IMG/VR virus record: IMGVR_UViG_2891442665_000011
Reading direction: 5' to 3' (one strand)
Source: an uncultured virus (IMG/VR IMGVR_UViG_2891442665_000011)
Taxonomy: Duplodnaviria; Heunggongvirae; Uroviricota; Caudoviricetes
Length of the DNA stretch: 20,000 nucleotides
Made by a program: the position numbers and the translations under genes. How positions within the stretch are numbered: the first letter of the stretch is position 1; each line of letters opens with the position of its first letter. This document shows positions 2,096-15,884 of the stretch, piece by piece. The notes below the pieces were generated by a model. The model was given only the letters and a program-made list of their open reading frames with translations, searched no databases and was not told where the DNA came from.

Positions 2096-3334
2096 ATGCT
2101 GATGCAATGTCCCGAATGCCAACTGCAAGTAAGCGATAAGGCAACATACTGTCCTCATTGTGGCTATCCGATGCAGCCAGACATAAAACCAAGAAAGCCT
2201 CGCAAATCCAACAAGCGAAGAAGACTGCCAAATGGATTCGGACAGATAAGTGAAATCAAAGGAAGAAATCTTCGAAATCCATTTCGAGCTATGGTTACAG
2301 TTGGAAAAACTCCGACTGGACGGCCTATTTGTAAGCCACTCAAACCGGAGTCATACTTTCCCACTTATAATGATGCCTATGCTGCTTTGGTAGAATATAA
2401 CAAGAATCCGTATGATTTAGAGCCAGCCATAACAGCGAAAGAACTCTATGAAAAATGGACAGAAGAATATTTCAAGACTCTGAAGAACGATGCGAGTGCG
2501 AGGGCCGTTACCTCTGCCTGGGCTTATTGCTCATCTGTCTACGATATGCGGGTAATGGACATTCGGGCGCGCCATGTAAAAGGCTGTATGGAAGAAGGAA
2601 TAGCTGTAGTTAGGGGGAAAGAGCAGCGGCCTAGTGCGTCCATGAAAAATAAAATTAAATCTCTGTTCAACCTTATGTTGGATTATGCTTTGGAATATGA
2701 GATTGTTGACCGTAACTACTCCAGAAGTTTCAATCTGACGGAAGAAACCATCAAAGAAATCCAGACCGTTAAAAAGGAACACATCCCGTTTACGGATGAA
2801 GAAATTGCATTGCTTTGGGAACATGTGGATGATAAACGGTATGTTGACGCAATCCTGATTCAATGCTATTCTGGATGGAGACCGCAGGAACTTGGATTGA
2901 TACGGTTGGAAGATGTTGATTTGGAGAATTGGACTTTCAAAGGCGGTATGAAAACAGATGCCGGTACCGATAGGGTTGTTCCGATTCATTCAAAGATACA
3001 GTCGCTAGTGCTCAGAAAATATAAAGAGGCAGAATCCCTGGGGAGCGAATTCCTTTTCAATTGCACCGATCCGGACAGAAACCGGAAAAATATAAAGTTC
3101 ACGTACAACCGGTATCAAAAGGGATTTACAAGAATCCGTGATGAGCTGAAGTTGAATCCAGACCATAGACCACATGACGGACGAAAACATTTCGTAAGTA
3201 TGGCAAAAAAATATGGCATCGATGAATACGCCATCAAATATATGGTCGGACATAAGATTTCTGACATCACTGAAAAAGTGTACACAGCAAGAGAGTTTGA
3301 CTGGCTGCGAGAGGAAATAGAAAAAATAAAATAG
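2096..3334 (+). CDS. int: Tyrosine recombinase/phage integrase with N-terminal zinc ribbon
   Basis: Catalytic residues: R (SGWRPQEL), K (GGMKT), HxxR (PHDGRKH), H (MVGH), Y (TEKVY); N-terminal CPEC...CPHC; AAGGAG RBS. Confidence 0.93.
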   Translation: MLMQCPECQLQVSDKATYCPHCGYPMQPDIKPRKPRKSNKRRRLPNGFGQISEIKGRNLRNPFRAMVTVGKTPTGRPICKPLKPESYFPTYNDAYAALVEYNKNPYDLEPAITAKELYEKWTEEYFKTLKNDASARAVTSAWAYCSSVYDMRVMDIRARHVKGCMEEGIAVVRGKEQRPSASMKNKIKSLFNLMLDYALEYEIVDRNYSRSFNLTEETIKEIQTVKKEHIPFTDEEIALLWEHVDDKRYVDAILIQCYSGWRPQELGLIRLEDVDLENWTFKGGMKTDAGTDRVVPIHSKIQSLVLRKYKEAESLGSEFLFNCTDPDRNRKNIKFTYNRYQKGFTRIRDELKLNPDHRPHDGRKHFVSMAKKYGIDEYAIKYMVGHKISDITEKVYTAREFDWLREEIEKIK

Positions 3335-3379: not shown

Positions 3380-3492
3380 AATATATGATTTACATACATT
3401 TCCCTGCTTTTTACCACTTCTAACCGCTTTTAAAAGTATTGATTTTACTGGTTTTTTCGCAAGTAGTCAGCTTAGGAAGTTTTTATTTTACA

Positions 3493-3515
3493 ATTATAAC
3501 TGTATTAGTTATAAT
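3493..3515. repeat. AT-rich inverted repeat ATTATAACT-gtatt-AGTTATAAT
   Basis: 9-bp perfect arms with a 5-bp spacer, at the junction between the two regions. Confidence 0.45.
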
Positions 3516-3607
3516 AATAATTAAAACAGTTGTATTTATAGCTAAATCGCCACAGAGAAAAATTTTTTCGTTGGTTTTCAACTGCGTCAATGGTTGTCTA
3601 CCTTGTT

Positions 3608-3616
3608 TGCTATACT
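3608..3616 (+). promoter_or_regulatory. Extended -10 element TGcTATACT upstream of the WYL gene
   Basis: TGnTATACT about 30 bp upstream of ATG 3648; no convincing -35. Confidence 0.4.
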
Positions 3617-3647
3617 ACTATACTATAGGTAAGGGGGCGGAGCTGCG

Positions 3648-4592
3648 ATGGAAAATCTGACGGAGGCGAAGTCCTCACGACTTCTGGTCATCTATTCCCG
3701 CTTGGTAAAGGGAGAAACCGTATCCAAAGCTGATTTGAGTGAGCAATACCATGTATCGGAGCGGAGCATACAACGAGATATGGAGGCCCTGCGTTGCTTT
3801 ATTTCCAATCAGTCTTTGGGACAGGATATTGTCTACGACTACAAGCTGCGAGGTTATCGGCTGGTGAACGATCTGTCCAAAGGGTTAAGCAACAGCGAGG
3901 TTTTGGCTGTTTGCAAAATCCTTTTGGAAAGCCGCTCTATGCGAAGGGATGAAATGCTGCCGATTTTGGACAAGCTAATCGACTGCGCCGTGCCGGAAGA
4001 AAACCGCCGTGCAGTAGTAGAGCTGATTTCAAACGAAAAGCACCATTACATAGAGCCGCACCATGGCAAACCTATTTTGAAGGGACTGTGGGAGTTTGGA
4101 CAGGCTATCAAGCATCATCAGTACATGGAGATTGAGTATGAACGGATAAAAGGGCCAAAGTGTGTACATCGGCGAATAAAGCCAGTCGGCATCATGTTTT
4201 CCGAGTATTATTTTTACCTCACAGCCTTTTTAGAGGATAAGACCGATTTTGAAAACCCGGACGATCTGTTTCCCACCATTTACCGCATCGACCGCATCCG
4301 TTCTTTTCAAGTGCTGGACGAGCACTTTTATGTGCCATACAGAGACCGTTTTGAGGAAGGGGAGTTTCGCAAACGGGTACAGTTTATGTACGGCGGAAGG
4401 TTGGAACGGATCAGGTTTCGCTACACTGGACCATCCGTGGAGGCAGTGCTGGACCGGCTGCCTACTGCGGAGATTGTCAGTACAGACAAGGAAGGGTGGA
4501 CGATTCAGGCAGAAGTATTCGGCAAGGGGGTTGAGATGTGGCTGAGGAGCCAGGGAGACTATGTTCAAATCATGCGGGAGGATACGCAATGA
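3648..4592 (+). CDS. HTH-WYL-WCX transcriptional regulator (YafY/PafBC/BrxR/CapW-like)
   Basis: N-terminal wHTH (LSEQYHVSERSIQRDMEALR); WYL domain (IKPVGIMFSEYYFYL...IYRIDRI); WCX-like C-terminus (WLRSQGDYVQI); 314 aa. Confidence 0.9.
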   Translation: MENLTEAKSSRLLVIYSRLVKGETVSKADLSEQYHVSERSIQRDMEALRCFISNQSLGQDIVYDYKLRGYRLVNDLSKGLSNSEVLAVCKILLESRSMRRDEMLPILDKLIDCAVPEENRRAVVELISNEKHHYIEPHHGKPILKGLWEFGQAIKHHQYMEIEYERIKGPKCVHRRIKPVGIMFSEYYFYLTAFLEDKTDFENPDDLFPTIYRIDRIRSFQVLDEHFYVPYRDRFEEGEFRKRVQFMYGGRLERIRFRYTGPSVEAVLDRLPTAEIVSTDKEGWTIQAEVFGKGVEMWLRSQGDYVQIMREDTQ

Positions 4593-5812
4593 AGCATAAA
4601 CTACAAAAGATTAAGGAAGAATCACAGGAGCTATGTACGGAAATTTCTTCTGATTTGCGTATATCGAAAGGGCATTTAGAGCAGATTGGGGACGAGTATC
4701 ATCGGGTTACAGAACTGTCTCATGCGCCGATGGTCGTTATCAACGAGATTGACAGGCAGTTTGCAAAAGCAACCAAGCTCAACGATGTAGACATAGCATT
4801 TTTATTTGTTGCGGCCGCACTACAATGTATCCGCCAGTACATATTTACACCAACACAGGAACGCTTGAACGATCAAGAAGCGGCCAACAAAGTAAAGAGC
4901 GGAAAAGAGCATTCAGACCGTTCCCACAGACTGTATAACCCCAGCCTGGAAGAAATTATTTCAAACCCAGTTCCTTTTGATATTACGGCTGGAAGTCGTG
5001 GCGTTCTCAAGGGATATGGTTCATTAGGCCATAGAGGGGCTACTGTAGGGCATGATCCGCTGTGGGGGTTGCTATATGGCACTGCAAACATCGCCACCAG
5101 CACGGTCACGATTTGGGGCAAAGATATTCCCGTTTTCATGGATTCCTACCATATCACAACTGGGTCGGTTCCTGTTCGCGGTGGCCTTGGAGCAAAGGAT
5201 GTAATCCCACTTAGTCCATCAGGCAAACCGATCTTGGCTGATACCAAAAAGGTTCTTAATTATACCATCGACAAATTACTGCATAAAGGTATGGAAGGGA
5301 AAACCATCGTTGGCGTTTCTGTCGCAAAGGAAATTCAGCATCTGCGCTCAGATGTTCACTCCACAAAAAGCCTTCCACTTCCAGCAATCTCAGCAATCAG
5401 CCCCAGGTTAGCCGGCGACCTTGCCAAGTATGGTGTAGATATGGCAACCGTATTGGATGCAGGGAAGCAGCTGGTCTACGCCATGGCAATTGACACACTA
5501 ATTGCACTAATCCACGGATTTTTTTATGAAGATTCTGCTGGACGCCGTAATATGTATGAAATCCGAACCAGAAGAATCCTGCTCTATTCTAATCTGATTG
5601 CATCTGCCAGCAATGTAGTTGTGGCGGCTGTCGCACAATCTCTTGGTATGGACGGGATGCGGATCGTGGACTGGGGTGGCTATTTGAATACTTTACATCA
5701 TATAGCCTTTGACGCAAAATTCATCCATGAAACTAAAAAGGATTTTCTGAAAAACGAGCTTTATGACCGCATTGTAGGCACAGAATATGATTTTATGAAA
5801 GGGGATATATAG
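4589..5812 (+). CDS. Hypothetical protein (407 aa) with several hydrophobic helices and an HRxxxxGHDPxxG motif
   Basis: ATG 4589 overlaps the WYL stop (ATGA) with GGGAGG RBS; hydrophobic segments IAFLFVAAALQCI, LWGLLYGTANIATSTVTIW, LVYAMAIDTLIALIHGFFY, ILLYSNLIASASNVVVAAVA. Confidence 0.8.
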   Translation: MKHKLQKIKEESQELCTEISSDLRISKGHLEQIGDEYHRVTELSHAPMVVINEIDRQFAKATKLNDVDIAFLFVAAALQCIRQYIFTPTQERLNDQEAANKVKSGKEHSDRSHRLYNPSLEEIISNPVPFDITAGSRGVLKGYGSLGHRGATVGHDPLWGLLYGTANIATSTVTIWGKDIPVFMDSYHITTGSVPVRGGLGAKDVIPLSPSGKPILADTKKVLNYTIDKLLHKGMEGKTIVGVSVAKEIQHLRSDVHSTKSLPLPAISAISPRLAGDLAKYGVDMATVLDAGKQLVYAMAIDTLIALIHGFFYEDSAGRRNMYEIRTRRILLYSNLIASASNVVVAAVAQSLGMDGMRIVDWGGYLNTLHHIAFDAKFIHETKKDFLKNELYDRIVGTEYDFMKGDI

Positions 5813-5813
5813 C

Positions 5814-7604
5814 ATGAGCAAAAAAGACTACAAACAAGGTATATCTGATGCTATGGCGGCTTACGAGGCGTTTGGCGAAAAGCAGGAGGCCGCCATCCGC
5901 CATGTGGGCGCTGAAATCGAAAGAACCGCCGGTAAAGTGGACCAGTTGGGCGGCAAGATCGGAGAGATCACCGACTATATTACCGACAAGGAGAAAGCGG
6001 CGCTTTACAAGTTGAACACTCCCGTTGACATCGCCGATCTGGATGACGCAGAAAAGCGTATCCTGCTGGCGGTACTGTACCAGCTTTCGGCGGACGAGGA
6101 CGAGGTGACGGCGGAGCAGCAAAACTATGTCCGGGCGGTGCAGCAGTATTTGAAAATCTATAACCCCCAGACAGAAATTGACCTGTCAGCAGTGGAGAAT
6201 ATCGAGGATATTTCCGCCCAGAAAGCAGTATTGCAATCTGTTCTGGAGTTTTTCCGCCTGGGGGCCCACCCGGAGGAGCTGACCGAGGAGCAGGAGGACT
6301 TTCTGGACTATTTCCAGGTCAACCGCAGGACTCGCCGGGAGATCGATGGCTTTATCACCGCCATCGTGGAGGCCGTAGGCATCAAGGGCCTTTCCGAAAA
6401 GTATGGCTTTGTAGCCGAACAGCCTCGGTCAGAGTTCGCCAAGTATCAGGACAATGGCAGGATACCGGAGAAGGTAGCGGACATCTGTATCGCCCAGCTT
6501 AAAGGCAAGGACGAAGATGACTATGACAATGATGACGAGGAATACGGGGTCAGTTTGGTTAAATGGTTTATGGACTGGACGCAATTTTTAGAAACAAAAG
6601 ATTATATTGTGTTTTTCAAGGCTCGCTATGATGGCATTGACCATGACGAGCAAGACTATGAGGATTACGACCTGAACGCAGACAAGAACTCTGGGCTTTT
6701 CCGCGTCCACAAGCAGAGCGGCAAGGTAGAGCGTATCCATATTGATTATGGGAAGATTGCCAGTCTTCCTTTTTATGGATGGTCTAATAATAAGCTGGTC
6801 TATTACATCGTACAAAATATGATTTACCTCACAATAAGCAAGCCTACCGAGGAAGAAAAAGTCTGGGTTTTAGCGGTGGATGTTAGCGAACAGGCCAGCC
6901 GGGTTTTGACTTTTCCGCACACATCCAACGGTTTTGAGTATATCCACATGAGCGCAAACGAATCTTATCTGATGATTGCCATTCTTGAAGCATATGGCCG
7001 TGATGAAATGAGGCCTGTTAAATCCTATGTGGTTGATTTGACACAGAATGATCGCATCTTTGTGCTGGATTCCGGTTTGTACGAAGTCTATGACGCATTT
7101 TTGTGGGAGGGAAAATTTCTGTTCTGGGGCATTAAAAAGAAGGGTACCCCAGATTCTCTCTATTGCTATGATCCTGGGCAGAAGACCTTGGAAAATATCC
7201 TGCCAGAGATGGACAGCAAAAAATTCAGGGGACTCAGAGCATCCTTTTCGGGGCCATTTGATTGGCGGCTCAACCCGTTGGATTACCTTACAACGATTGA
7301 CCATATGTGGCGTGTAGATGACCGCTACCACTATTGGCTGACAAATCGTACTTACTACGGTTCTGAACATCCGCTGTCACTTATTCGCCTTTTGCCGGAT
7401 GGTTATCTGTGTACATGGACGAATGTTATTAGCTGTCACTGCTTGAAAAAGGTTAGTTATCAAGAAGAAGATTTTGAGCTTGAAGGCTCATATATCCTTT
7501 TGGGCGATTACCTCTATCGTAGCAATTCCGAGGGCTGGCAGAAAACAAACATCTCCAACGGCTTGGACAATTTGCAGTGGGAGATTTTCCAGATGCCTGA
7601 TTGA
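5814..7604 (+). CDS. Hypothetical protein (596 aa): N-terminal coiled coil + TerB-like helical domain, C-terminal beta-rich (propeller-like) domain
   Basis: Starts 1 bp after the upstream stop, AAAGGGG RBS; EKRILLAVLYQLSADEDEVTAEQQNYVRAVQQYL resembles the TerB-like pattern; C-terminal LFRVHKQSGKVERI, VLAVDVSEQASRVL, LYCYDPGQKTLENI resemble propeller blades. Domain calls by eye. Confidence 0.75.
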   Translation: MSKKDYKQGISDAMAAYEAFGEKQEAAIRHVGAEIERTAGKVDQLGGKIGEITDYITDKEKAALYKLNTPVDIADLDDAEKRILLAVLYQLSADEDEVTAEQQNYVRAVQQYLKIYNPQTEIDLSAVENIEDISAQKAVLQSVLEFFRLGAHPEELTEEQEDFLDYFQVNRRTRREIDGFITAIVEAVGIKGLSEKYGFVAEQPRSEFAKYQDNGRIPEKVADICIAQLKGKDEDDYDNDDEEYGVSLVKWFMDWTQFLETKDYIVFFKARYDGIDHDEQDYEDYDLNADKNSGLFRVHKQSGKVERIHIDYGKIASLPFYGWSNNKLVYYIVQNMIYLTISKPTEEEKVWVLAVDVSEQASRVLTFPHTSNGFEYIHMSANESYLMIAILEAYGRDEMRPVKSYVVDLTQNDRIFVLDSGLYEVYDAFLWEGKFLFWGIKKKGTPDSLYCYDPGQKTLENILPEMDSKKFRGLRASFSGPFDWRLNPLDYLTTIDHMWRVDDRYHYWLTNRTYYGSEHPLSLIRLLPDGYLCTWTNVISCHCLKKVSYQEEDFELEGSYILLGDYLYRSNSEGWQKTNISNGLDNLQWEIFQMPD

Positions 7605-7696
7605 TACGCTCCGCTCTTGCACTATTTCAAGCTATATATTATAGCTATAGCGGCAAGGAAAATCTGTCCAAATAAATTTGAAAAGGAGATACTATA

Positions 7697-8476
7697 ATGA
7701 GTGAAGAAACTAATTTTCTGGAAGAACTGGAGGATGTGCTTGAAGAAGCAGCTTCCGCTGAAAGCGAAAAACTCCGTACTCCTTTGGAGGACTTTGCCTT
7801 CTGGCTGCGAGACCTGGGAAACTGCGCCTCCTTCCGGGGGAACCTAATTTCCCTGGACCGTGCCAAAGCGGATGTTATGGCCGCCGATGCCGAGGAAGCA
7901 TTTCAGTCAAATGCAAAATGCCGGGATGCAGCGCAGAAGCGTGTGGACAAGGCAATCCACGAGGCCCGGCAGAAGATGGACGCCCGGATGAGTGTTTCGG
8001 GAAACAGCAGCTTTTATCAGGAGTTCCGGCAGCGGTTCGACCACCGGTTGAATGCCCTTCGGGAAAAGTTGGAGCTGTTGCGTACTTCTGAAAATGCCGC
8101 TGTTGTGGACGAAATGGAGGGCCATCTGATAGCCTCCGGGATTCATGGAAAAGCAAAGGAAATCTGCGGCGATCTCGCTACGGAATATTCTCTTCAAGCC
8201 GCCAGCGTGTATTACAACGAAATTGGCTACGATGCCTGGGACCCCTCGGACTATGAGGAAGGTCTTGCGAAACTTTTCGCCAAGGGTTTTGTGCGGCATG
8301 GTTTTAACTGCTATGACGCCATCCGGGCCACCGAACAGGATGCCGAAACCGCCCTTGACCGTTTCCAAGCGGACTTCAATACCCAGATACAGGATGAGAT
8401 CTTGTCAACCATTGTAGAGCCTGTTCAAAAGCTGCTCCCCCGGCTCCGGGATGCCGATGCACTTCTCTCCGCATAA
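7697..8476 (+). CDS. Hypothetical all-helical/coiled-coil acidic protein (259 aa)
   Basis: AAAGGAG RBS; long helical heptad-like stretches; no catalytic motif recognised. Confidence 0.8.
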   Translation: MSEETNFLEELEDVLEEAASAESEKLRTPLEDFAFWLRDLGNCASFRGNLISLDRAKADVMAADAEEAFQSNAKCRDAAQKRVDKAIHEARQKMDARMSVSGNSSFYQEFRQRFDHRLNALREKLELLRTSENAAVVDEMEGHLIASGIHGKAKEICGDLATEYSLQAASVYYNEIGYDAWDPSDYEEGLAKLFAKGFVRHGFNCYDAIRATEQDAETALDRFQADFNTQIQDEILSTIVEPVQKLLPRLRDADALLSA

Positions 8477-8527
8477 TGAGCGTCATTCTGATTTCACGAT
8501 CAGGGAAATTATATACTATAACAGTGT

Positions 8528-8563
8528 AGGCCACGGGGTAATTCCCTGTGGCCTTATTTTGTT
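8528..8563 (+). terminator. Intrinsic terminator AGGCCACGGGG-taatt-CCCTGTGGCCT-TATTTTGTT
   Basis: 11-bp stem (one G-U pair) plus U-rich tail, 50 bp after the 7697..8476 stop. Confidence 0.7.
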
Positions 8564-8583
8564 GCTGTAAGGAGGTGATGGAT

Positions 8584-9069
8584 ATGCACAGCAGCGTGTT
8601 TGAGATTTCCCATGCGCCTATTCCTATGTCAAAATGGGCCAGAGCCGGAAATCTGCCTGACTGGTTCTATGAGCAGATTTGCGATTATGCTGAGAATGCA
8701 GACCCGGAGCAGCGGCGAAACGCCATCAGTCAGCTTTGTAGGGCTTTAGGAAGTTTGTGTGCGCTGGACGGGGACAGGCTTACCATTTCTCCACAAATCA
8801 AGGAAAGCTATTTTCACAAAGGCTACAGCTGTTTCATAACAACGGCAAAAAAACTCGCACAGATTGATTATAAAACATTTTCAGGATGCCGAACCACTCC
8901 AACACTTTCCTTGGTTCTGGACAAGCTGAATGACAGCTATGAGGACAAAAGAGGCGTTTACATCTATCTGTCCGAAACAGGAGAATTGATAACGCTGGAT
9001 CGTTGGCTTCGTACCACTGATTTCTCCAAGTCCTTCTACATCGACGGTACGATCAATTACCACTACTAA
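8584..9069 (+). CDS. Hypothetical protein (161 aa), first gene of the DUF932/YqaJ module
   Basis: AAGGAGG RBS 8 nt before ATG 8584 (ORF-track start 8548 lies inside the terminator hairpin). Confidence 0.75.
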   Translation: MHSSVFEISHAPIPMSKWARAGNLPDWFYEQICDYAENADPEQRRNAISQLCRALGSLCALDGDRLTISPQIKESYFHKGYSCFITTAKKLAQIDYKTFSGCRTTPTLSLVLDKLNDSYEDKRGVYIYLSETGELITLDRWLRTTDFSKSFYIDGTINYHY

Positions 9070-9093
9070 AATTTAGAAAGTGAGGAATGAAAA

Positions 9094-10029
9094 ATGTCCG
9101 CAAATGTTGAAACCATGTTCTATGTCCGCAAAAAGCCCTGGCACGGCTTGGGGACCGAGGTAAAGGAGGCCCCCACTTCCGCCGACGCCCTCATCTACGC
9201 CGGCCTGGATTGGGAGGTCGTTCAGGAGGATGTCTATACCGGTCATGGCTCCCCGATCCCTGGCTACAAGGTCAATCTCCGCAGCAGTGATGGCTCTGCC
9301 TTGGGGATCGTCTCCGACCGCTACAAGGTGGTTCAGAACGAGGATGCCTTTCGGTTCACTGATGACCTTCTGGGGGCCGGTGTCACCTATGAGACGGCAG
9401 GGGCCTTGCAGGGCGGCCGCAAGGTCTGGATGCTGGCCCGGATGCCTCACCGCTACATCATCGCCGGGGACGAGATTGCCCCCTATCTGGTGGTGATGAA
9501 CTCCCACGACGGCAGCAGCGGCATCAAAGTTGCCATGACCCCGGTCCGGGTGGTCTGCCAAAATACCCTAAATCTGGCCTTAAACACCGCCAAGCGTGTT
9601 TGGACCACCAAGCACACCGAAAATGTGATGGGCCGCATCCACGAGGCCAAGGAGACCTTACTGCTGGCCGAGCGGTATATGGAGGAACTGGGCCGGAGCA
9701 TCGACGCTCTGTCCAAAATCAGCCTGAGCGACAGGAAGGTCACCGAGTTTATGGAGGAGCTTTTTCCGGTGGGTCAGGACCTGCCGGAAATCCAGCGCAA
9801 GAACAATCTGCGGATGCTGGAGGATTTGAAGGCCCGGTATTGGGAGGCCCCGGACCTGGCCCATGTGGGGAAGAACGGCTACCGATTCGTCAACGCCGTC
9901 AGTGATTTTGCTATCCACGCCGACCCCATCCGCAGGACCAGGAACTACGATGAAAACCTGTTTCTCCGCACCGTGGAAGGGAATCCCATCATCGACAAGG
10001 CGTACAAGATGGCGCTGGCTGTTGCATAA
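9094..10029 (+). CDS. DUF932 domain phage/plasmid-like protein
   Basis: Characteristic motifs PWHGLG, LGIVSDRYKVVQNEDAF, ETAGALQGGRKVW, NSHDGS, TPVRVVCQNTL. Confidence 0.9.
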   Translation: MSANVETMFYVRKKPWHGLGTEVKEAPTSADALIYAGLDWEVVQEDVYTGHGSPIPGYKVNLRSSDGSALGIVSDRYKVVQNEDAFRFTDDLLGAGVTYETAGALQGGRKVWMLARMPHRYIIAGDEIAPYLVVMNSHDGSSGIKVAMTPVRVVCQNTLNLALNTAKRVWTTKHTENVMGRIHEAKETLLLAERYMEELGRSIDALSKISLSDRKVTEFMEELFPVGQDLPEIQRKNNLRMLEDLKARYWEAPDLAHVGKNGYRFVNAVSDFAIHADPIRRTRNYDENLFLRTVEGNPIIDKAYKMALAVA

Positions 10030-10042
10030 GGAGGTGGTTACG

Positions 10043-10987
10043 ATGGCGGCAATCGTTTTAGCTTCTACCGAAAATATGTCCTATGAGGATTGGTTGGAAA
10101 ATCGCAGGCAGGGGATTGGCGGCTCGGATGCTTCGGTGGTGTGCGGAATCAACCGGTACAAATCCCCTTTAGAGCTGTGGATGGAGAAAACCGACCAGCT
10201 TCCCCAGCAGGGGGCAGGAGAGGCAGCCTATTGGGGGACCCAGCTGGAGGCGCTGGTCCGCTTGGAGTTCAGTAAGCGAACTGGAATTGAGGTTTGCCTG
10301 GAAAAGCAGCTTCTTCAAAGCGAAGAGCACCCCTTTATGCTGGCGAATCTGGACGGCGTTTGTCAGCACCCGGAGTTTGGGCCCTGTATCTTCGAGGCCA
10401 AGACAGCCACCGCTTACAAGGCCGGAGAATGGGAGGATACTATCCCGGACGAGTACCAGCTTCAAATCCAGCACTATATGGCGGTGACGGGCTACCGAGG
10501 GGCCTACATCGCCGTTCTTATCGGAGGGAACACCTTCCGCTGGAAGTTTGTGGAGCGTGACGAGGAGTTGATTTCCATGCTCGTCGAACTGGAATCGGAT
10601 TTCTGGGGCCATGTGCAGAGCCTTACTCCTCCCCCTCTGGATGGTTCCAAGGCATCAGCCAAATTCCTTGCGGAACGGTTTCCCAACAGTGTCCCCCTCT
10701 CGCAAATTACCCTGCCGGAGACTGCTGTCGAACTTCTCCACCAGTACGATGAAGCCTGTGAGCAGTTAGATGCCATCACTGAACGGAAACAGGAGGCCGA
10801 AAATCTCCTAAAGGAGATGATGGGGGAGAACGAGGTGGGGACCGTGGGAGAGCGAATCATCACCTGGAAAAGTGTCTCCCAGGAGCGGCTGGACAGCAGA
10901 ACGCTGAAAGCCGAGCATCCGGCCCTTTACAAGAAGTACGCAAATCAAACAACATACCGCCGCTTTTCCATTAAGGCGGCGGGGTAA
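10043..10987 (+). CDS. YqaJ-like viral recombinase-family exonuclease (lambda-exonuclease fold)
   Basis: WLENRRQGIGGSDAS, ANLDG, FEAKT, YQLQIQHYMAV motifs; AAGGAGG RBS before ATG 10043 (ORF-track start 9863 overlaps DUF932 and is unlikely). Confidence 0.92.
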   Translation: MAAIVLASTENMSYEDWLENRRQGIGGSDASVVCGINRYKSPLELWMEKTDQLPQQGAGEAAYWGTQLEALVRLEFSKRTGIEVCLEKQLLQSEEHPFMLANLDGVCQHPEFGPCIFEAKTATAYKAGEWEDTIPDEYQLQIQHYMAVTGYRGAYIAVLIGGNTFRWKFVERDEELISMLVELESDFWGHVQSLTPPPLDGSKASAKFLAERFPNSVPLSQITLPETAVELLHQYDEACEQLDAITERKQEAENLLKEMMGENEVGTVGERIITWKSVSQERLDSRTLKAEHPALYKKYANQTTYRRFSIKAAG

Positions 10988-10998
10988 ATGGAGGATTT

Positions 10999-11760
10999 AT
11001 GATGGATACCGCAAAACTGAAAAGCCGTTTGGAGGGTAAGGTTCAGGAATTGCAAAAGCCTGCTGCCGACGCTGCTCTGGCTCCCTCCGGTTCCGCCTAT
11101 ATGGCTCTGAATGGCGATGCCTTGGGCATCATTCGGGAGAATTTGAAGAATCAGCCCTTGTCCCTTGACCTTTTCGATATTGTCAAATCCCCGTCCGGGG
11201 GGTCTACGGTGTTTTCCGTCCCGGGGCTGGCTGGGGAGGAAGCGGAAAAGGAACTGACAGGGATCATCCTGGACTATACCACTCCCAGGGCCTATTGGGA
11301 CAGCCCGGACCCGGTGGAAGGTACGCCGCCCACCTGTATGAGCCAGAACAGCATCATTTCCTTTGACGGGAAATCCTGCGCCCACTGTCCCTTCAACGAT
11401 TTCGGCTCCAAGAATGGGGAGAGCAACGCCAAGGCCTGCAAGGAATCGGTACTGCTGTTTCTGCTGCGGCCGGGGAGCATCATCCCCCTGCTGGTGCGTG
11501 TCCCGGTGACCAGCAAGAACCGGTTTTTGAGATACTCCACCCGGCTGTTGTGTACCCTGACGCCGATTTCCAGCGTGGTCACGAGGATCACCTTGGAGAA
11601 GGCCACCAGCAAGGGAGGAAAACCTTATGCTTTGTTTAACTTTGAGGCGGTTACTGCTCTTAGCCAGGAAGAGGCGGCCCAGGCGAAAGCCTTTGGGCGG
11701 CAGTTTATGGAAATCGTGAATGCTGCTCAGCTGGTACCAGAGTTAGCGGAGGCCGGTTAA
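10999..11760 (+). CDS. Cys-rich phage-type protein, putative ssDNA-binding/annealing protein (not RecT)
   Basis: RAYW...PPTC...CAHCPFNDFGS...KACK pattern; GGAGG RBS; occupies the usual position of the annealase after YqaJ; function inferred. Confidence 0.7.
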   Translation: MMDTAKLKSRLEGKVQELQKPAADAALAPSGSAYMALNGDALGIIRENLKNQPLSLDLFDIVKSPSGGSTVFSVPGLAGEEAEKELTGIILDYTTPRAYWDSPDPVEGTPPTCMSQNSIISFDGKSCAHCPFNDFGSKNGESNAKACKESVLLFLLRPGSIIPLLVRVPVTSKNRFLRYSTRLLCTLTPISSVVTRITLEKATSKGGKPYALFNFEAVTALSQEEAAQAKAFGRQFMEIVNAAQLVPELAEAG

Positions 11761-11780
11761 AATGAGTGGTAGCTAATTAT

Positions 11781-11823
11781 AGCCCAGCGTCCACGCAGAT
11801 AAAGGAGGACGCTGGGCTGTTTC
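11781..11823 (+). terminator. Hairpin AGCCCAGCGTCC-N14-GGACGCTGGGCT followed by GTTT; probable terminator of the YqaJ operon
   Basis: 12-bp perfect stem (11781-11792/11807-11818), 20 bp after the stop; U-tail is short. Confidence 0.65.
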
Positions 11824-11945
11824 GCAAATGGTATTTAGTAGGATGTAAAAAAACAATAAGGTGGGATTGCTTTGTAGCAGAAATCAGAACCAAAGGAAAG
11901 AAGCAATTGGAATGCTACCAGCCTGCCTTTCACAAGAAAACCATA

Positions 11946-12022
11946 CTCGTCCAAGCTCCGATGCTGCGCTCTACACTTGGACGAGGTATATCGCTTGAAC
12001 TCGTATGCTTTTCTTGTTCAAG
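11946..12022. repeat. Tandem inverted repeats CTCGTCCAAG/CTTGGACGAG and CTTGAAC/GTTCAAG
   Basis: Arms at 11946-11955/11976-11985 and 11994-12000/12016-12022. Confidence 0.6.
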
Positions 12023-12071
12023 GTAGGACTGGTTTTATATCTTATAGAAAAGCCCCCCTGAGGAAATCGGT

Positions 12072-14156
12072 TTATCTATCCTCCAAAAACAGTCGTTTAC
12101 ACATACTTAAAACTCTGGGCTGTAAATCAGCAGCAATCATGTCAGCACAAACCTTTTGAATATACCATTCTACAATAGATAAGTATGGCTGTATATCTTC
12201 TGGGAAATATTTATCCGTATCTTTCTCAGCCTGTATTGTTTCATTTAATTCAGATAATCTGATGTTGCTTCCCGGATAACATGGATCAGTATCTCCTATA
12301 ACATACGCTTCAACATCCGGATCACTTTTGATTACAGATTCTAAGAACTCTGCTAATTTTCGATGCCATTTCAACGGCATAATGCCGTGCCCAATTCCGT
12401 CTGGATCCAATAGTGCAATTTGCTTATATTGCTTTACAATGGCTTGTTCATCATGCTCCAGCAATTTCCGTATTTTCCGTTTGACCTTCACTACACGCTG
12501 GTCTTGCTTTTCATAGAAGAAATAGAACAAATTATCAGTGCGACATATGGATTTCGCGTATACAGGAATATGAAAGTCAAACACCCCATTAAGCTGTTGG
12601 TACAACTTAAAAATGGGGATCTCACTATCCGTACCATACAATATGGATCTTCCTCCAACAGCTAACCAATTTTGTTTGACAAGTTGATTCCTACATCTCG
12701 CGTAAAGCGCATCGCACAATTTTTGATTACAAGGGGAAAGAGTGGGATTTCTATACTGCACATTTTCATACCATTTGCACAGTTCATGAAAAAATCGAAA
12801 ATGGCATTGCTGAAAAAAAGACAACCGCCAATCCGTTTCTGCTTTTACCGAAGTAGCGATTTGGATATGTTTATCCCCCAACCGATAACTCCGTTTCAAA
12901 AGCGGTATCCTTGGCTCCTGTTTATTGATAAACCAGTGTGCCAAGTAAAATGGTCCTGCCTCAGCAACCCATTCTTTTGATAATTCAACTTGCACTTTAC
13001 AAAAACACTGGTAAATAGGATGTTTTCGATACTCATATAACGCTTGTCGCTCTAAATGACACAAAAAAGTATTTGCTACTTTCCTGTTCAAGATAGGCAT
13101 ATCTCGTTCCTGGTCCTTTGGTACTTGGGCCGATTCGGCAGCCTTGAAAAAAACTTTTAATCCAAGTTGAGACACTAACTTTTGGTCCAAGTCCCTCTCG
13201 CGTTGAGCAATTTCTACGGTGTGTTCCAGTTTCTTTTGATCCAGACAATTTAGCCATCGATAAAAATCATCGAGCCACCTGTTTTTCTCTTTCAGACGCA
13301 AACTTTCGTCAGGTGTTTTTAAGACTATTTCAAGTCGATGAACCAACCGATCCAAAGGAATCAATAGATCTATTGATTCCTCAATGTATCTCAGGTCCCG
13401 CAAAATCTTCTGTTCTGTCGCCGGCAAACAAACGCTGCGCTCCTCCGTTGTCCCCCTTCCGGTCTGCTCTAAACAATACTGACGGTAAATCCTAAAGAAG
13501 TCTCGAATATCTTCTTCTGAAAATGTAGCATCACCAGACTTTATTGTCCTATCCATATTATACCACTGTGAAACGATTTCACTTTGTTTTCTTAAATCGT
13601 CAATTACTTTTTGGCAGAGCCTATAATCCTTCTGGAAATATACTGCTCCTGCTAATAAGGCGTTATTCTCTAACGAAACCCACTGAAATTCTGCTCTTAT
13701 CTTGTCAGGAATTTTGAATGATTCCAAGGTATCGCACGGACGGACAGCCATATGCTGCTCTCCGTCAAAAGCCGTACCGAAAAGAAATCCTTGTCCAGAC
13801 AACGCAAGATGAATCAGTGATCGAAAGCACTCTCTATCTGTTCCGGGGGCGCGAAGTTCTTTTTCTTTCTCGATTGCTGCTTCAAAAAACGCTACTGCGT
13901 TGTGTGTTGGCAATCCGAAGCGAATCGAAAGCCCTTGAAAGCATTCGATTCCTATCAGAACATCCTTCTGAACACCTAAAATATCGCTTCTGTTCGGGAC
14001 ATAATCGAGTATGCTATCCCGTCGAAGGACCGACTCCTCTTTCGGTATGATGACACCCGAATCAATCTGAGTCTCCAATGCATCGATCAGATTTCGACTT
14101 AAACCAACCGCAGTATCCCTCTTTTCCTCTGGCAAGCAGATTCCTCCCTTCCGCAT
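12072..14156 (-). CDS. Hypothetical protein (694 aa), low GC, no recognised domain
   Basis: Long uninterrupted ORF; start uncertain (GAAGGGAGG RBS just inside the ORF suggests TTG at about 14135). Confidence 0.8.
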   Translation of the reverse strand: MRKGGICLPEEKRDTAVGLSRNLIDALETQIDSGVIIPKEESVLRRDSILDYVPNRSDILGVQKDVLIGIECFQGLSIRFGLPTHNAVAFFEAAIEKEKELRAPGTDRECFRSLIHLALSGQGFLFGTAFDGEQHMAVRPCDTLESFKIPDKIRAEFQWVSLENNALLAGAVYFQKDYRLCQKVIDDLRKQSEIVSQWYNMDRTIKSGDATFSEEDIRDFFRIYRQYCLEQTGRGTTEERSVCLPATEQKILRDLRYIEESIDLLIPLDRLVHRLEIVLKTPDESLRLKEKNRWLDDFYRWLNCLDQKKLEHTVEIAQRERDLDQKLVSQLGLKVFFKAAESAQVPKDQERDMPILNRKVANTFLCHLERQALYEYRKHPIYQCFCKVQVELSKEWVAEAGPFYLAHWFINKQEPRIPLLKRSYRLGDKHIQIATSVKAETDWRLSFFQQCHFRFFHELCKWYENVQYRNPTLSPCNQKLCDALYARCRNQLVKQNWLAVGGRSILYGTDSEIPIFKLYQQLNGVFDFHIPVYAKSICRTDNLFYFFYEKQDQRVVKVKRKIRKLLEHDEQAIVKQYKQIALLDPDGIGHGIMPLKWHRKLAEFLESVIKSDPDVEAYVIGDTDPCYPGSNIRLSELNETIQAEKDTDKYFPEDIQPYLSIVEWYIQKVCADMIAADLQPRVLSMCKRLFLEDR

Positions 14157-14282: not shown

Positions 14283-15884
14283 ATGAGCAGCAAGGAAAAG
14301 AAACCCGAACTACACTCCGTTACACTTGAACTCCCGCATACTACGCAAACGATCAATTCAACCAAGGTAAACAAGCAACTTGTCCCTCTCGAAATGGCTA
14401 CTGAGAAAGCCCGAAATTTAGCAAAATCAAAGAAACTTGACCATGAAATCAAAGTCAAACATAACCCACTCAAAAAGAAAGCACTAAAAAATCGTCCCTT
14501 TCAAAAGGCTTTTGGGTGTCTACTTCAATTTCCAAGTTATGTCGAACAGCCAGAAACCGCAGCCATCCTTTTGTTACTGATTCTGCTTAGCCAAGTAGCT
14601 TATTTATTGGTCGGTATATTGCCGCCGTTGCCAGCGGTTCTTTTGAGCGCAACCTCCACAGCGTTATCCCCCGTATTAAATGTTTTGCTCTGTGCTATCC
14701 AAGGTCCTCCCAAATGGCGTGGTGATAAATGGAAACTCCGGCGCCCATGGGTTATACATCCCCGCATATCGCCAAGGGAAACCAAACCATCTATATCCGT
14801 TTTAGATTACATAGGCGGAACAATTAGTGACTGGTATTTTAGTAAACCCATCAAATTTTGTTTTCCATATATAAACTCCGCCTTTGCATTGATGCCGGGG
14901 ATACCTCCTTCTGTCAACAAACAAATTACCGCTATATCTCCATTATCGTTGCCAATTATATTTAAGGACAGTAAATCGGAAGATAATCGAACTACACTTT
15001 CCATCGATGCAGGCCAACTTGCTTCCTACGATGTGGAAAGGATACAGGAACTAAAAGACTTGTCCGAAGTCTGCTATCTGGGGATAATGGGTTTTCTCCG
15101 GTGGTTCTGTCAAAGCAAAGAGCTTATACAGAATTGGAAAAATAACATCGTGCATTTTCGTCCGGTCAAGAAAAACGGACGCTTCACCCACTCAAAATCA
15201 GACCTCCAAACAGAACTTCTATGTGCCGCACTTTCGTTGCTTGAGAAATATCTTTATTTTGCATCAGACGAAGTGGGCTGGATCACCGAAGAACAAGCCA
15301 TTGAACTCTTACTCTACTATTGGAGACTGGTCCTGCCGGAATCCGCACCACAGAAAGAAAAAGAACCAAACACACAATATACCTATGATGATCCACGAAT
15401 CTTCTACCGTTTTCTCACAGAATATTTTCTTCCAACTTATCAGAAGCAAATCCTACAAGGCCGTCAAGGTAGCCAAGGAACAATGGGTCTAATTCGGCCG
15501 TTAGACGGAATGGACTATATCATTATCCCTCGTACCGTTCTGCTGGAAACCTATTCAAACTGGCTGAAAGAACAGAATATCTCGGATTTTGATCTTTCAA
15601 CGGCGAAAAGCGAGGCAGCGGTACAGCGTAGCCTTCTGGATGCTGGCATCCCTTTCAAACATGAAGGCAACAATCCGGCAACATGGCGTTATCCTTTCTA
15701 TGGAAAAGATAAAAAAACTCCTGGAGGTGGTATGGTCAACTGCATGGCCCTTCCCCTTTCTCATCTCCCGGAAAATGTCCATACCGCCCTCGGAACAAAG
15801 TTCGGAGGGGGTGACCTTAACGCAACCTCTCCGAATCCCGCCGAAGCTGCTCCGGACAGCCGCAAGGGGGTAAAAACACCGTGA
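14283..15884 (+). CDS. Hypothetical protein (533 aa), possibly replication-associated
   Basis: GAAAGGAG RBS; stop overlaps the helicase start (GTGA); basic N-terminus, hydrophobic stretch AAILLLLILLSQVAYLLVGIL; no clear Walker motifs. Confidence 0.75.
   Translation: MSSKEKKPELHSVTLELPHTTQTINSTKVNKQLVPLEMATEKARNLAKSKKLDHEIKVKHNPLKKKALKNRPFQKAFGCLLQFPSYVEQPETAAILLLLILLSQVAYLLVGILPPLPAVLLSATSTALSPVLNVLLCAIQGPPKWRGDKWKLRRPWVIHPRISPRETKPSISVLDYIGGTISDWYFSKPIKFCFPYINSAFALMPGIPPSVNKQITAISPLSLPIIFKDSKSEDNRTTLSIDAGQLASYDVERIQELKDLSEVCYLGIMGFLRWFCQSKELIQNWKNNIVHFRPVKKNGRFTHSKSDLQTELLCAALSLLEKYLYFASDEVGWITEEQAIELLLYYWRLVLPESAPQKEKEPNTQYTYDDPRIFYRFLTEYFLPTYQKQILQGRQGSQGTMGLIRPLDGMDYIIIPRTVLLETYSNWLKEQNISDFDLSTAKSEAAVQRSLLDAGIPFKHEGNNPATWRYPFYGKDKKTPGGGMVNCMALPLSHLPENVHTALGTKFGGGDLNATSPNPAEAAPDSRKGVKTP

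What the first reader, a model, noticed from the sequence alone, without database searches (positions are those of the whole stretch)
3648..8563. Candidate undescribed WYL-regulated anti-phage system (membrane protein + TerB-like/propeller protein + coiled-coil protein)
Seen: a WYL regulator is translationally coupled (ATGA overlap, then a 1-bp gap) to a 407-aa protein with several hydrophobic helices and a 596-aa two-domain protein, followed by a 259-aa helical protein and a terminator. Established: WYL regulators such as BrxR and CapW sit at the head of defence operons (BREX, CBASS, RM) on mobile elements, and TerB-like domains occur in defence systems such as Shango and Bunzi. None of the three genes matches a defence system I can recognise. 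Inference: a sensor (variable beta-rich domain), scaffold and membrane-disrupting effector acting by abortive infection. This is the best candidate for a new system in the window.
Basis: partly seen in the sequence, partly recalled or inferred. Interest (0 to 1): 0.8.

Follow-up and report, generated by a model that had tools for sequence, protein, structure and literature searches.

The report
WYL-controlled variant of Bunzi phage defence
This gene cluster on a mobile element of a gut bacterium is a rearranged, previously unannotated relative of the poorly understood Bunzi anti-phage system, in which a conserved membrane protein is paired with a soluble partner whose end domain is swapped between relatives like a sensor.

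Summary
The genes, overlaps and terminator are as described. The claim that no gene matches a known defence system is wrong. The 407-aa protein matches PADLOC's BnzB model of Bunzi (E 5.8e-13) and shares an invariant His/Asp motif with 108 other BnzB-like proteins.

The 596-aa protein does not match BnzA. It has three parts:
- a ~60-aa N-terminal helix, found at the start of the gene just downstream of the BnzB-like gene in 25 of 109 related loci, including dynamin-like GTPase partners;
- a helical domain that resembles TerB only at fold level;
- a hypervariable beta-propeller, 56% identical to the nearest relative where the flanks are 87-99%.

One relative carries a true BnzA module in the propeller's slot.

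A WYL gene lies directly upstream in 16 of those 25 loci. A GACA-N5-TGTC-like palindrome precedes 19 of 24 such WYL genes.

The 259-aa protein is seen in a locus only in near-identical systems. In 9 of 59 relatives its domain is fused to the partner's N-terminal domain.

Verdict: a new variant of a known kind. The sensor, release and membrane-damage mechanism is inferred and no function was tested. The scan has already noted other Bunzi-like variants on other DNA.

The parts
3487..3515 (+). Promoter-like site (TTTACA, 17 nt, TATAAT). It sits at the left edge of the conserved cassette.
   Evidence: 11 of 12 consensus positions. The region as a whole has no excess of such sites: 8 found against 8.6 +/- 2.9 in shuffles. 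Similarity to the related metagenome contig L024 begins at 3484. Contigs from RNA libraries diverge to the left of 3484-3487.
3586..3598 (.). Candidate operator for the WYL regulator: GTCAATGGTTGTC, one mismatch from the palindrome GACA-N5-TGTC, 62 nt before the WYL start codon.
   Evidence: The exact palindrome occurs in 10 of 24 distinct 120-nt regions upstream of related WYL genes, and with up to one mismatch in 19 of 24. The background rate in the fetched loci is 0.012 and 0.043 per 120 nt. I defined the motif after looking at these same regions. Binding was not tested.
3648..4592 (+). HTH-WYL transcription regulator, 314 aa.
   Evidence: Pfam WYL E 1.2e-8 and HTH_11 E 8.1e-5. PADLOC WYL models E 1.2e-20. 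Homologues of 43-50% identity lie beside BnzB-like genes in 5 of 8 genome loci by BLASTP and in 6 of 8 by the PADLOC WYL models. A WYL gene lies directly upstream in 16 of the 25 loci of this architecture.
4589..5812 (+). BnzB-like membrane-associated protein, 407 aa; the conserved core and presumed effector.
   Evidence: PADLOC BnzB PDLC03834 at E 5.8e-13, residues 125-399 against model positions 232-496 of 504. The AF2 model has pLDDT 85.7 and no solved relative: best Foldseek E 0.45 and best VIA Z 7.4. Three hydrophobic helices. P129, D131, H148, G154, H155, D156, G160, G164, T174, D255 and P265 are invariant in 109 of 109 BnzB-like proteins.
5814..5993 (+). N-terminal helix of the partner protein (residues 1 to about 60); proposed docking element for the BnzB-like protein.
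   Evidence: Helix 3-44 in the model. An iterated HMM of this stretch finds 28 ORFs, and in every one the match lies within the protein's first 74 residues. Of these, 26 lie in 25 of the 109 loci and the other 2 are in L001 and the window's own contig L023. In all 25 loci the match is in the gene just downstream of the BnzB-like gene. They include partners with a dynamin-like GTPase. Binding is inferred.
6024..6389 (+). Helical middle domain of the partner (residues 71-192), TerB-like by fold only.
   Evidence: The structure search on the ESM Atlas's own model gives TerB or DUF533 clusters in rows 1-4. The best has TM 0.72 by the row and 0.45 by the query, with 120 residues aligned. Pfam TerB matched 0 of 32 family members at E <= 10. 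The N-terminal ~200 residues are the conserved part of the family.
6453..7604 (+). Hypervariable C-terminal beta-propeller of the partner (residues about 214-596); presumed sensor.
   Evidence: VIA Z 11.0, rmsd 5.5 A, 277 aligned to the DPP IV propeller 5yp1_A. Foldseek E 1.6e-5 to acylaminoacyl-peptidase and Kelch propellers. It is 56% identical to L024, where the same protein's N-domain is 91% and the flanking genes are 87-99% apart from the 173-aa gene at 79%. In relatives it is replaced by a beta-helix, a BnzA module, a 259-aa-like domain or other domains.
7697..8476 (+). 259-aa accessory protein; a free-standing copy of a domain that elsewhere sits at the C-terminus of the partner family.
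   Evidence: Among the fetched loci it is present only in the near-identical systems L001, L024 and the window's own contig. Of 59 representative relatives, 9 carry the partner's N-domain in front of this domain, at E 4.8e-72 to 1.2e-104. It was not found in viral contigs, nor in the 400 other sampled genomes of the phylum.
8528..8554 (+). Intrinsic-terminator-like hairpin that closes the operon.
   Evidence: 11-pair stem with 8 G-C pairs, loop of 5, tail TATTTTGTTG.

Best explanation
The cluster is a WYL-repressed, rearranged variant of the Bunzi anti-phage system, carried as cargo on an integrative element of a gut Firmicute.

Shown:
- The core is a BnzB-like protein with three hydrophobic helices and an invariant His/Asp-rich motif.
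- It is translationally coupled to a soluble partner built from a conserved N-terminal helix, a conserved helical domain and a C-terminal domain that is exchanged between relatives.
- A dedicated WYL regulator, with a palindrome in front of it, accompanies the pair.

Inferred:
- The WYL protein keeps the operon low until a cue, such as the single-stranded DNA sensed by CapW-type regulators, lifts repression.
- The partner docks on the BnzB-like protein through its N-terminal helix and holds it inactive.
- The propeller recognises a phage component and releases or activates the BnzB-like protein.
- That protein then damages the membrane or an envelope substrate, by enzyme-like chemistry at its His/Asp centre or by insertion, which stops the infected cell.
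- The 259-aa protein is an accessory, probably a second specificity or helper module that has lost its adaptor part.
For: - Homology to Bunzi. PADLOC BnzB hits the 407-aa protein at E 5.8e-13. All 8 more distant relatives in genomes hit BnzB at E 6.5e-24 to 4.1e-65. A residue set is invariant across 109 family members. L026/P0213, which shares 69% identity with the 596-aa protein's N-domain, carries a BnzA module at E 3.1e-14 in place of the propeller.
- Conserved module. In all 11 loci whose BnzB-like protein is 45-93% identical (L024-L034), a gene of the partner family follows within 0-44 nt. A WYL gene is at its upstream end, overlapping or up to 16 nt before it, in 8 of the 8 that have enough flank. 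The architecture recurs in 25 of 109 loci.
- Shared N-terminal helix on otherwise different partners.
- The sensor domain is the fastest-evolving part.
- The operator-like palindrome is enriched upstream of the WYL genes.
- Patchy distribution: 9 of 399 scored genomes of the class.
- Mobile and defence context. Related loci carry recombinases and PADLOC hits to mad2/3/8, IetA and LeoA/BC. Relatives occur on 29 viral contigs.
- The locus is present in assemblies from four RNA libraries of three studies, with contigs that bridge the WYL/B, B/C and C/D junctions.
- Bunzi protected B. subtilis in Millman et al. (bioRxiv 10.1101/2022.05.11.491447; passages read).
- WYL repressors of defence operons: abstracts seen in the search listing.
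Against: - No function was tested.
- The BnzB match covers only the C-terminal two thirds of the protein.
- No window protein hits the BnzA model even at E <= 10. The partner has no transmembrane helix. The gene order is the reverse of canonical Bunzi.
- TerB likeness has no sequence support.
- A lactococcal Bunzi gave no protection against the phages tested (PMC11381338; passage read).
- Contigs from RNA libraries can contain DNA and do not prove a single transcript.
- The palindrome was defined post hoc, and the window's copy has one mismatch.
- On a FastTree of the BnzB-like proteins this architecture is not a single clade.
- No background rate was measured for defence genes in the neighbourhoods.
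Confidence: 0.55

Rival explanations
1. An addiction or competition module of the mobile element rather than anti-phage immunity. The BnzB-like protein is a membrane toxin, the co-translated partner is its antidote, and the pair stabilises the element or excludes rival elements.
For: Tight translational coupling. Cargo position next to recombinases. A hydrophobic effector beside a soluble partner. Several two-gene defence systems in Millman et al. are also toxin-antitoxin pairs (passage read).
Against: A simple antidote has no need for a hypervariable propeller or exchangeable C-terminal domains. Nor would it need a WYL regulator of the kind tied to defence operons. The only tested relative was scored as phage defence. 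The two readings are not exclusive.
Confidence: 0.15
2. A membrane-stress or membrane-remodelling module, related in theme to Ter and dynamin-like systems, that helps the host or the element cope with envelope damage in general rather than sensing phage.
For: TerB-like fold. True TerB proteins and dynamin-like GTPases (LeoA/LeoBC, Dynamin_N) occur as partners in sister loci. TerB was first tied to tellurite stress (passage read).
Against: The distribution is patchy and mobile: 9 of 399 genomes. The C-terminal domain is hypervariable. WYL control is present. These fit an arms race better than housekeeping does. In PADLOC, the dynamin-like Leo proteins are themselves listed as defence candidates.
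Confidence: 0.15
3. The functional unit is only three genes (WYL, BnzB-like, partner). The 259-aa gene is unrelated neighbouring cargo that merely shares the terminator.
For: The 259-aa gene is absent from 10 of the 11 closest related loci; for example, L027 goes from the partner straight to the 173-aa gene and DUF932. A 92-nt gap and its own ribosome-binding site separate it from the partner. The family was not found in viral contigs or in the 400 other sampled genomes.
Against: In 9 of 59 representative relatives its domain is fused to the partner's N-terminal domain. Eight relatives share a longest-contig length with propeller-type partners, which is only an indirect sign of the same contig. 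No terminator-like site lies between the partner and this gene. An RNA-library contig spans 7483-8645.
Confidence: 0.35

Closest known systems
Bunzi (BnzA + BnzB), Millman et al. 2022 (bioRxiv 10.1101/2022.05.11.491447)
   Same: A BnzB-like core protein with the family's invariant His/Asp motif. The partner gene is directly adjacent. Partners in the same protein family can carry a BnzA module. The membrane theme is shared, and the mechanism is unknown in both.
   Different: No BnzA match in the window. The partner is soluble, lies downstream rather than upstream, and ends in a beta-propeller. A WYL regulator and a fourth gene are added. The BnzB-like protein is shorter (407 aa against a 504-position model) and its N-terminal third is unmatched.
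Split or shortened Bunzi-like loci (TerB protein plus a small membrane protein plus a BnzB-like protein), seen here in sister loci and noted earlier by this scan (e1-2461685, e1-2482072)
   Same: The same BnzB-like family. The same backbone position, just upstream of a DUF932 gene, in L035, L040, L064 and L070.
   Different: There the partners lie upstream. They are a true Pfam TerB protein (E 2.4e-8) and a 160-210-aa protein, which in the canonical type has about three hydrophobic segments. They have no N-terminal helix motif and no propeller.
Dionysus (DinA, DinB TerB-like, DinC pore-forming toxin), bioRxiv 10.1101/2025.09.30.679545
   Same: A multi-gene defence system that combines a TerB-like protein with a membrane-active effector (passages read).
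   Different: No sequence relation was tested or seen. Dionysus has a MAEBL/TM protein and a four-TM pore-former, occurs in Proteobacteria and acts on jumbo phages.
BrxR/CapW-type WYL repressors of defence operons (PMC9122601, PMC9122588, PMC11662680; abstracts seen in the search listing)
   Same: An HTH + WYL protein of about 300 aa at the head of a defence-like operon, with a palindrome in its own upstream region.
   Different: No sequence match to any solved structure at E <= 0.01. The C-terminal WCX domain and the ligand were not shown.

Membership tests
Bunzi defence system | A BnzB homologue | tested here: met
   PADLOC PDLC03834 at E 5.8e-13 over residues 125-399. The motif is shared with 108 other BnzB-like proteins.
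Bunzi defence system | A BnzA homologue (TerB domain, two transmembrane helices, lipid-interacting domain; Millman et al., passages) | tested here: not met
   No window protein hits PDLC03833 at E <= 10. The 596-aa protein has no hydrophobic segment. A relative of it does carry a BnzA module.
Bunzi defence system | Two-gene operon in the order bnzA then bnzB | tested here: not met
   The order here is WYL, BnzB-like, partner, 259-aa gene. That canonical Bunzi has the A-then-B order is taken from sister loci and from recall.
Bunzi defence system | Protection against phage | not testable with these tools
TerB domain (Pfam PF05099) | Sequence match to the TerB profile | tested here: not met
   0 of 32 family members at E <= 10. 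No hit for the window protein or its N-terminal part.
TerB domain (Pfam PF05099) | TerB-like helical fold | tested here: inconclusive
   On the Atlas's own model, residues 71-192 align to TerB clusters with TM 0.72 by the row, 0.45 by the query and 120 residues aligned. All scores are below the tool's bar for naming a family. Local hhalign against 6 true TerB proteins gave P 0.013 over 44 columns.
wHTH-WYL-WCX repressors (BrxR/CapW) | N-terminal HTH plus a central WYL domain | tested here: met
   HTH_11 E 8.1e-5 and WYL E 1.2e-8, above the cut-off.
wHTH-WYL-WCX repressors (BrxR/CapW) | C-terminal WCX domain, and ligand-dependent repression of the adjacent operon | not tested
   No Pfam hit beyond residue 222. 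No solved relative by sequence. The candidate operator is computational only.
Beta-propeller fold | Structural match covering the domain | tested here: met
   VIA Z 11.0 to 9.0 for 44 solved chains, almost all propeller-containing, spanning residues about 214-596. Foldseek gave 232 matches at E <= 0.001.

The most novel reading that the evidence does not exclude
BnzB-like proteins are a large, unrecognised family of membrane-embedded effectors with a metal- or enzyme-type His/Asp centre. They are armed by a universal ~60-residue docking helix. Any protein that carries this helix can couple its own sensing domain to the same effector: a TerB-like adaptor with a propeller, beta-helix, BnzA module or 259-aa-type domain, or a dynamin-like GTPase. 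On this reading Bunzi is one face of a plug-and-play receptor-effector platform, and the window's operon is its WYL-gated form with a soluble sensor.
Probability: 0.3. Interest if true: 0.75.

Novelty: new variant of a known kind. Interest (0 to 1): 0.55.

Why it matters
Bunzi is a validated defence system with no known mechanism. The two library searches found no paper that explains BnzB.

This variant offers handles that the canonical system lacks:
- a soluble partner with a cleanly separable adaptor helix;
- a swappable sensor domain that pinpoints where specificity should lie;
- an invariant residue set in the effector to mutate;
- a dedicated regulator with a candidate operator.

The family is common in gut metagenomes. 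The effector has 1058 homologues at E <= 0.001, and none of the 120 listed carries a Pfam domain or an informative name. At the level of the PADLOC protein models, the partner matches nothing. Recognising this architecture would therefore add systems to defence annotation in Firmicutes.

Tried and rejected
- PDB sequence searches. Profiles of the effector, partner and 259-aa families, and the WYL protein itself, gave nothing meaningful.
- Fold searches for the effector. Foldseek found no match at E <= 0.001 and the best VIA Z was 7.4, to generic helical bundles. I do not claim a new fold, only that no solved relative was found.
- TerB by sequence. Pfam at E <= 10 on the protein, on its N-terminal part and on 32 relatives gave no TerB. 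Local hhalign of the N-domain against true TerB proteins, BnzA-module proteins and the two small-partner clusters gave only P 0.013-0.09.
- Early guess dropped. I first took BnzA model positions 18-140 to be the TerB part. No call shows this, so I dropped it.
- The 259-aa family was not found in viral contigs. It was found in 1 of 401 sampled genomes of the phylum, and that one is the window's own.
- Cluster look-up gave only 'hypothetical protein' names and no adjacency information.
- The first genome-collection scan used a single protein and returned only one locus.
- RNA-library contigs leave some bins uncovered in X17 and X18. This says nothing about expression.
- On a midpoint-rooted FastTree of 109 effectors, the downstream-partner type falls in several blocks, not one clade. 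I make no co-evolution claim.
- The 24-nt imperfect inverted repeat at 3489-3540 over the distal promoter is conserved only in L024, so I did not take it as the operator.
- Earlier-findings look-ups by place and by sequence returned nothing.
Full report
**Observation**

- WYL regulator, 3648-4592;
- 407-aa gene, 4589-5812, with the ATGA overlap read;
- 596-aa gene, 5814-7604, one base after the TAG;
- 259-aa gene, 7697-8476, after a 92-nt gap with its own ribosome-binding site.

A strong terminator-like hairpin follows at 8528-8554. The regulator matches Pfam WYL and HTH_11. All three unknown proteins have many homologues: 1058, 122 and 64 at E <= 0.001. They are real genes.

**What the 407-aa protein is**

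It matches PADLOC's BnzB model at E 5.8e-13, over residues 125-399. BnzB is the second protein of the Bunzi defence system.

I searched 399 scored genomes of the same class, and 9 hold a relative. All 8 relatives outside the window's own genome hit BnzB, at E 6.5e-24 to 4.1e-65.

I aligned 109 distinct family members from genomes, metagenomes and viral contigs. P129, D131, H148, G154, H155, D156, G160, G164, T174, D255 and P265 are invariant. R149, P157, H251, P263 and N342 are nearly so. This looks like an active or metal-binding site rather than a plain pore-former.

The AlphaFold2 model (pLDDT 85.7) is helical with a small beta insertion. Three helices are hydrophobic: 67-87, 294-313 and 330-354. 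No solved structure resembles it. The best Foldseek E is 0.45 and the best VIA Z is 7.4, to generic bundles.

**What the 596-aa protein is**

It matches no Pfam, PADLOC, NCBIfam or PHROG model. An alignment of 32 relatives shows that the first ~200 residues are strongly conserved, ending in EKYGFV. The rest is unalignable between subgroups.

The model (pLDDT 77.1) has a long N-terminal helix (3-44), a helical domain, and a beta domain from about residue 247. The beta domain is a propeller. VIA gives Z 11.0, rmsd 5.5 A and 277 aligned residues to a DPP IV propeller. Foldseek gives E 1.6e-5 to peptidase and Kelch propellers.

For the helical domain, the ESM Atlas structure search places residues 71-192 on TerB and DUF533 clusters in its first four rows. 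The best has TM 0.72 by the row. Pfam TerB matched 0 of 32 relatives at E <= 10, so 'TerB-like' is a fold-level lead and not a membership.

**The partner is modular**

In relatives the propeller is replaced by other domains:
- a right-handed beta-helix (Pfam Beta_helix);
- in L026/P0213, a module that hits the PADLOC BnzA model at E 3.1e-14, which ties this protein family directly to Bunzi;
- a domain homologous to the window's 259-aa protein.

The first ~60 residues form a separate motif. An iterated HMM finds it in 28 ORFs, always within the first 74 residues of the protein. Of these, 26 lie in 25 of the 109 loci, each time in the gene immediately downstream of the BnzB-like gene. The other 2 are in L001 and the window's own contig.

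Some of these proteins have no TerB-like domain at all. Instead they carry a dynamin-like GTPase (Dynamin_N E 5.9e-17; LeoA E 3.6e-13). A short helix shared by otherwise unrelated proteins, each encoded right after the same effector, is most simply read as the effector's docking element.

**Conservation of the cluster**

Among 80 metagenome and 29 viral loci retrieved with the effector family, I looked first at L024-L034. These are the 11 loci whose effector is 45-93% identical to the window's.
- In all 11, a partner-family gene follows the effector within 0-44 nt.
- In 8 of the 8 with enough upstream sequence, a WYL gene abuts its upstream end, overlapping it or ending up to 16 nt before it.

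Across all 109 loci, 25 have this downstream-partner architecture, and 16 of these have a WYL gene directly upstream. Of the other 9, 7 have under 1 kb of upstream flank and 2 have the WYL gene 2.7-2.8 kb downstream.

The remaining loci have upstream partners instead:
- a ~226-aa protein in 27 loci;
- a ~182-aa protein, mostly with three hydrophobic segments, that matches BnzA positions ~276-417, in 21 loci;
- a true Pfam TerB protein plus a small helical protein in 6 loci.

These are the forms that the scan noted earlier on other DNA.

**Regulation**

A palindrome GACA-N5-TGTC lies within 120 nt upstream of the WYL gene in 10 of 24 distinct upstream regions. With one mismatch allowed, it is present in 19 of 24. 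The background rates are 0.012 and 0.043 per 120 nt. The window's copy, GTCAATGGTTGTC at 3586-3598, has one mismatch. I defined the motif after inspecting these regions, so it is a candidate operator and nothing more.

**The 259-aa protein**

It was seen in a locus only in the window's own contig and in L001 and L024. Their copies are 87% identical to the window's. In L027 the partner is followed directly by the 173-aa gene and DUF932.

Its family has 59 representative clusters. In 9 of them the domain sits behind the partner's N-terminal domain, at E 4.8e-72 to 1.2e-104. Eight of its relatives also share a longest-contig length with propeller-type partners, which is only an indirect sign of linkage.

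I read it as an accessory: a free-standing copy of one of the exchangeable C-terminal modules. Its fold was not predicted.

**Context**

- L024 is colinear with the window from 3484 to 13863. This also supports the window's continuity across two contigs of the held assembly.
- Identity to L024 is 97% (WYL), 93% (effector), 91% (partner N-domain), 56% (propeller), 87% (259-aa), 79% (173-aa protein) and 99% (DUF932). The propeller is the fast-evolving part.
- To the left of 3484 the contexts differ. RNA-library contigs in two runs continue into the L024-type sequence, and one run continues from the integrase side into other DNA. The tyrosine integrase at 2096-3334 is therefore not part of the conserved unit.
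- Different Bunzi-like variants sit just upstream of a DUF932 gene in L027, L035, L040, L064 and L070. That suggests a cargo hotspot of one family of elements.
- The locus is present in four RNA libraries of three studies, with contigs bridging all three gene junctions. Such contigs may contain DNA and do not prove one transcript.

**Mechanism and status**

Shown:
- homology of the core to BnzB;
- the conserved three-gene module;
- the modular partner;
- the variable sensor domain.

Inferred:
- WYL-gated expression;
- docking through the N-terminal helix;
- activation of a membrane-acting effector on phage sensing, with an abortive outcome.

Bunzi's own mechanism is unknown. Millman et al. suggest only 'membrane surveillance'. 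A 2025 preprint on the TerB-containing Dionysus system says that the role of TerB is still unclear. A lactococcal Bunzi gave no protection against the phages tested.

**Verdict**

This is a real, conserved and unannotated architecture, best filed as a new variant of Bunzi and not as a new kind of system. Confidence that it is a Bunzi-type defence module is 0.55, and lower for the detailed mechanism.

Noticed in passing
window 3484-3487: A sharp junction. Similarity to the related contig L024 starts at 3484. RNA-library contigs carry different sequence to the left of it, and one contig coming from the integrase side continues into other DNA beyond 3487. This looks like the end of a separate integrase-bearing element, or a recombination site, abutting the cassette's promoter.
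   Followed up: partly
window 14283-17995: Two overlapping genes of 533 and 704 aa with no family match. The second has a P-loop-like GVGKT motif and weak helicase-like hits (YoaA E 0.12). They lie between a 694-aa unknown on the minus strand (12072-14156) and a large serine recombinase (18165 onwards). They may be further cargo of the element.
   Followed up: no
window 8548-11760: Conserved backbone genes of the element: a 173-aa unknown, DUF932 (E 1.4e-58), a YqaJ/RecE-like exonuclease (E 4.4e-44) and a phrog_23155 protein. G+C here is 55-57%, against 40-47% elsewhere in the window. DUF932 follows Bunzi-like variants in at least seven related loci.
   Followed up: partly
L049, L055, L102 (genes just downstream of the BnzB-like gene); L018, L044, L058: Dynamin-like GTPases (Dynamin_N, LeoA/LeoBC models) are encoded beside BnzB-like genes. 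In three loci they carry the same N-terminal helix motif as the window's partner protein.
   Followed up: partly
L030 8437-10353 and 11616-12821: One locus holds two partner-family genes with different C-terminal domains (638 and 401 aa) after a single BnzB-like gene, as if it carried two alternative sensors.
   Followed up: no
G000 contigs C113 and C91 against the window: The held assembly of this genome splits the window into two contigs, with about 800 bases (roughly 8609-9414) on neither. The join is supported by the colinear metagenome contig L024.
   Followed up: partly
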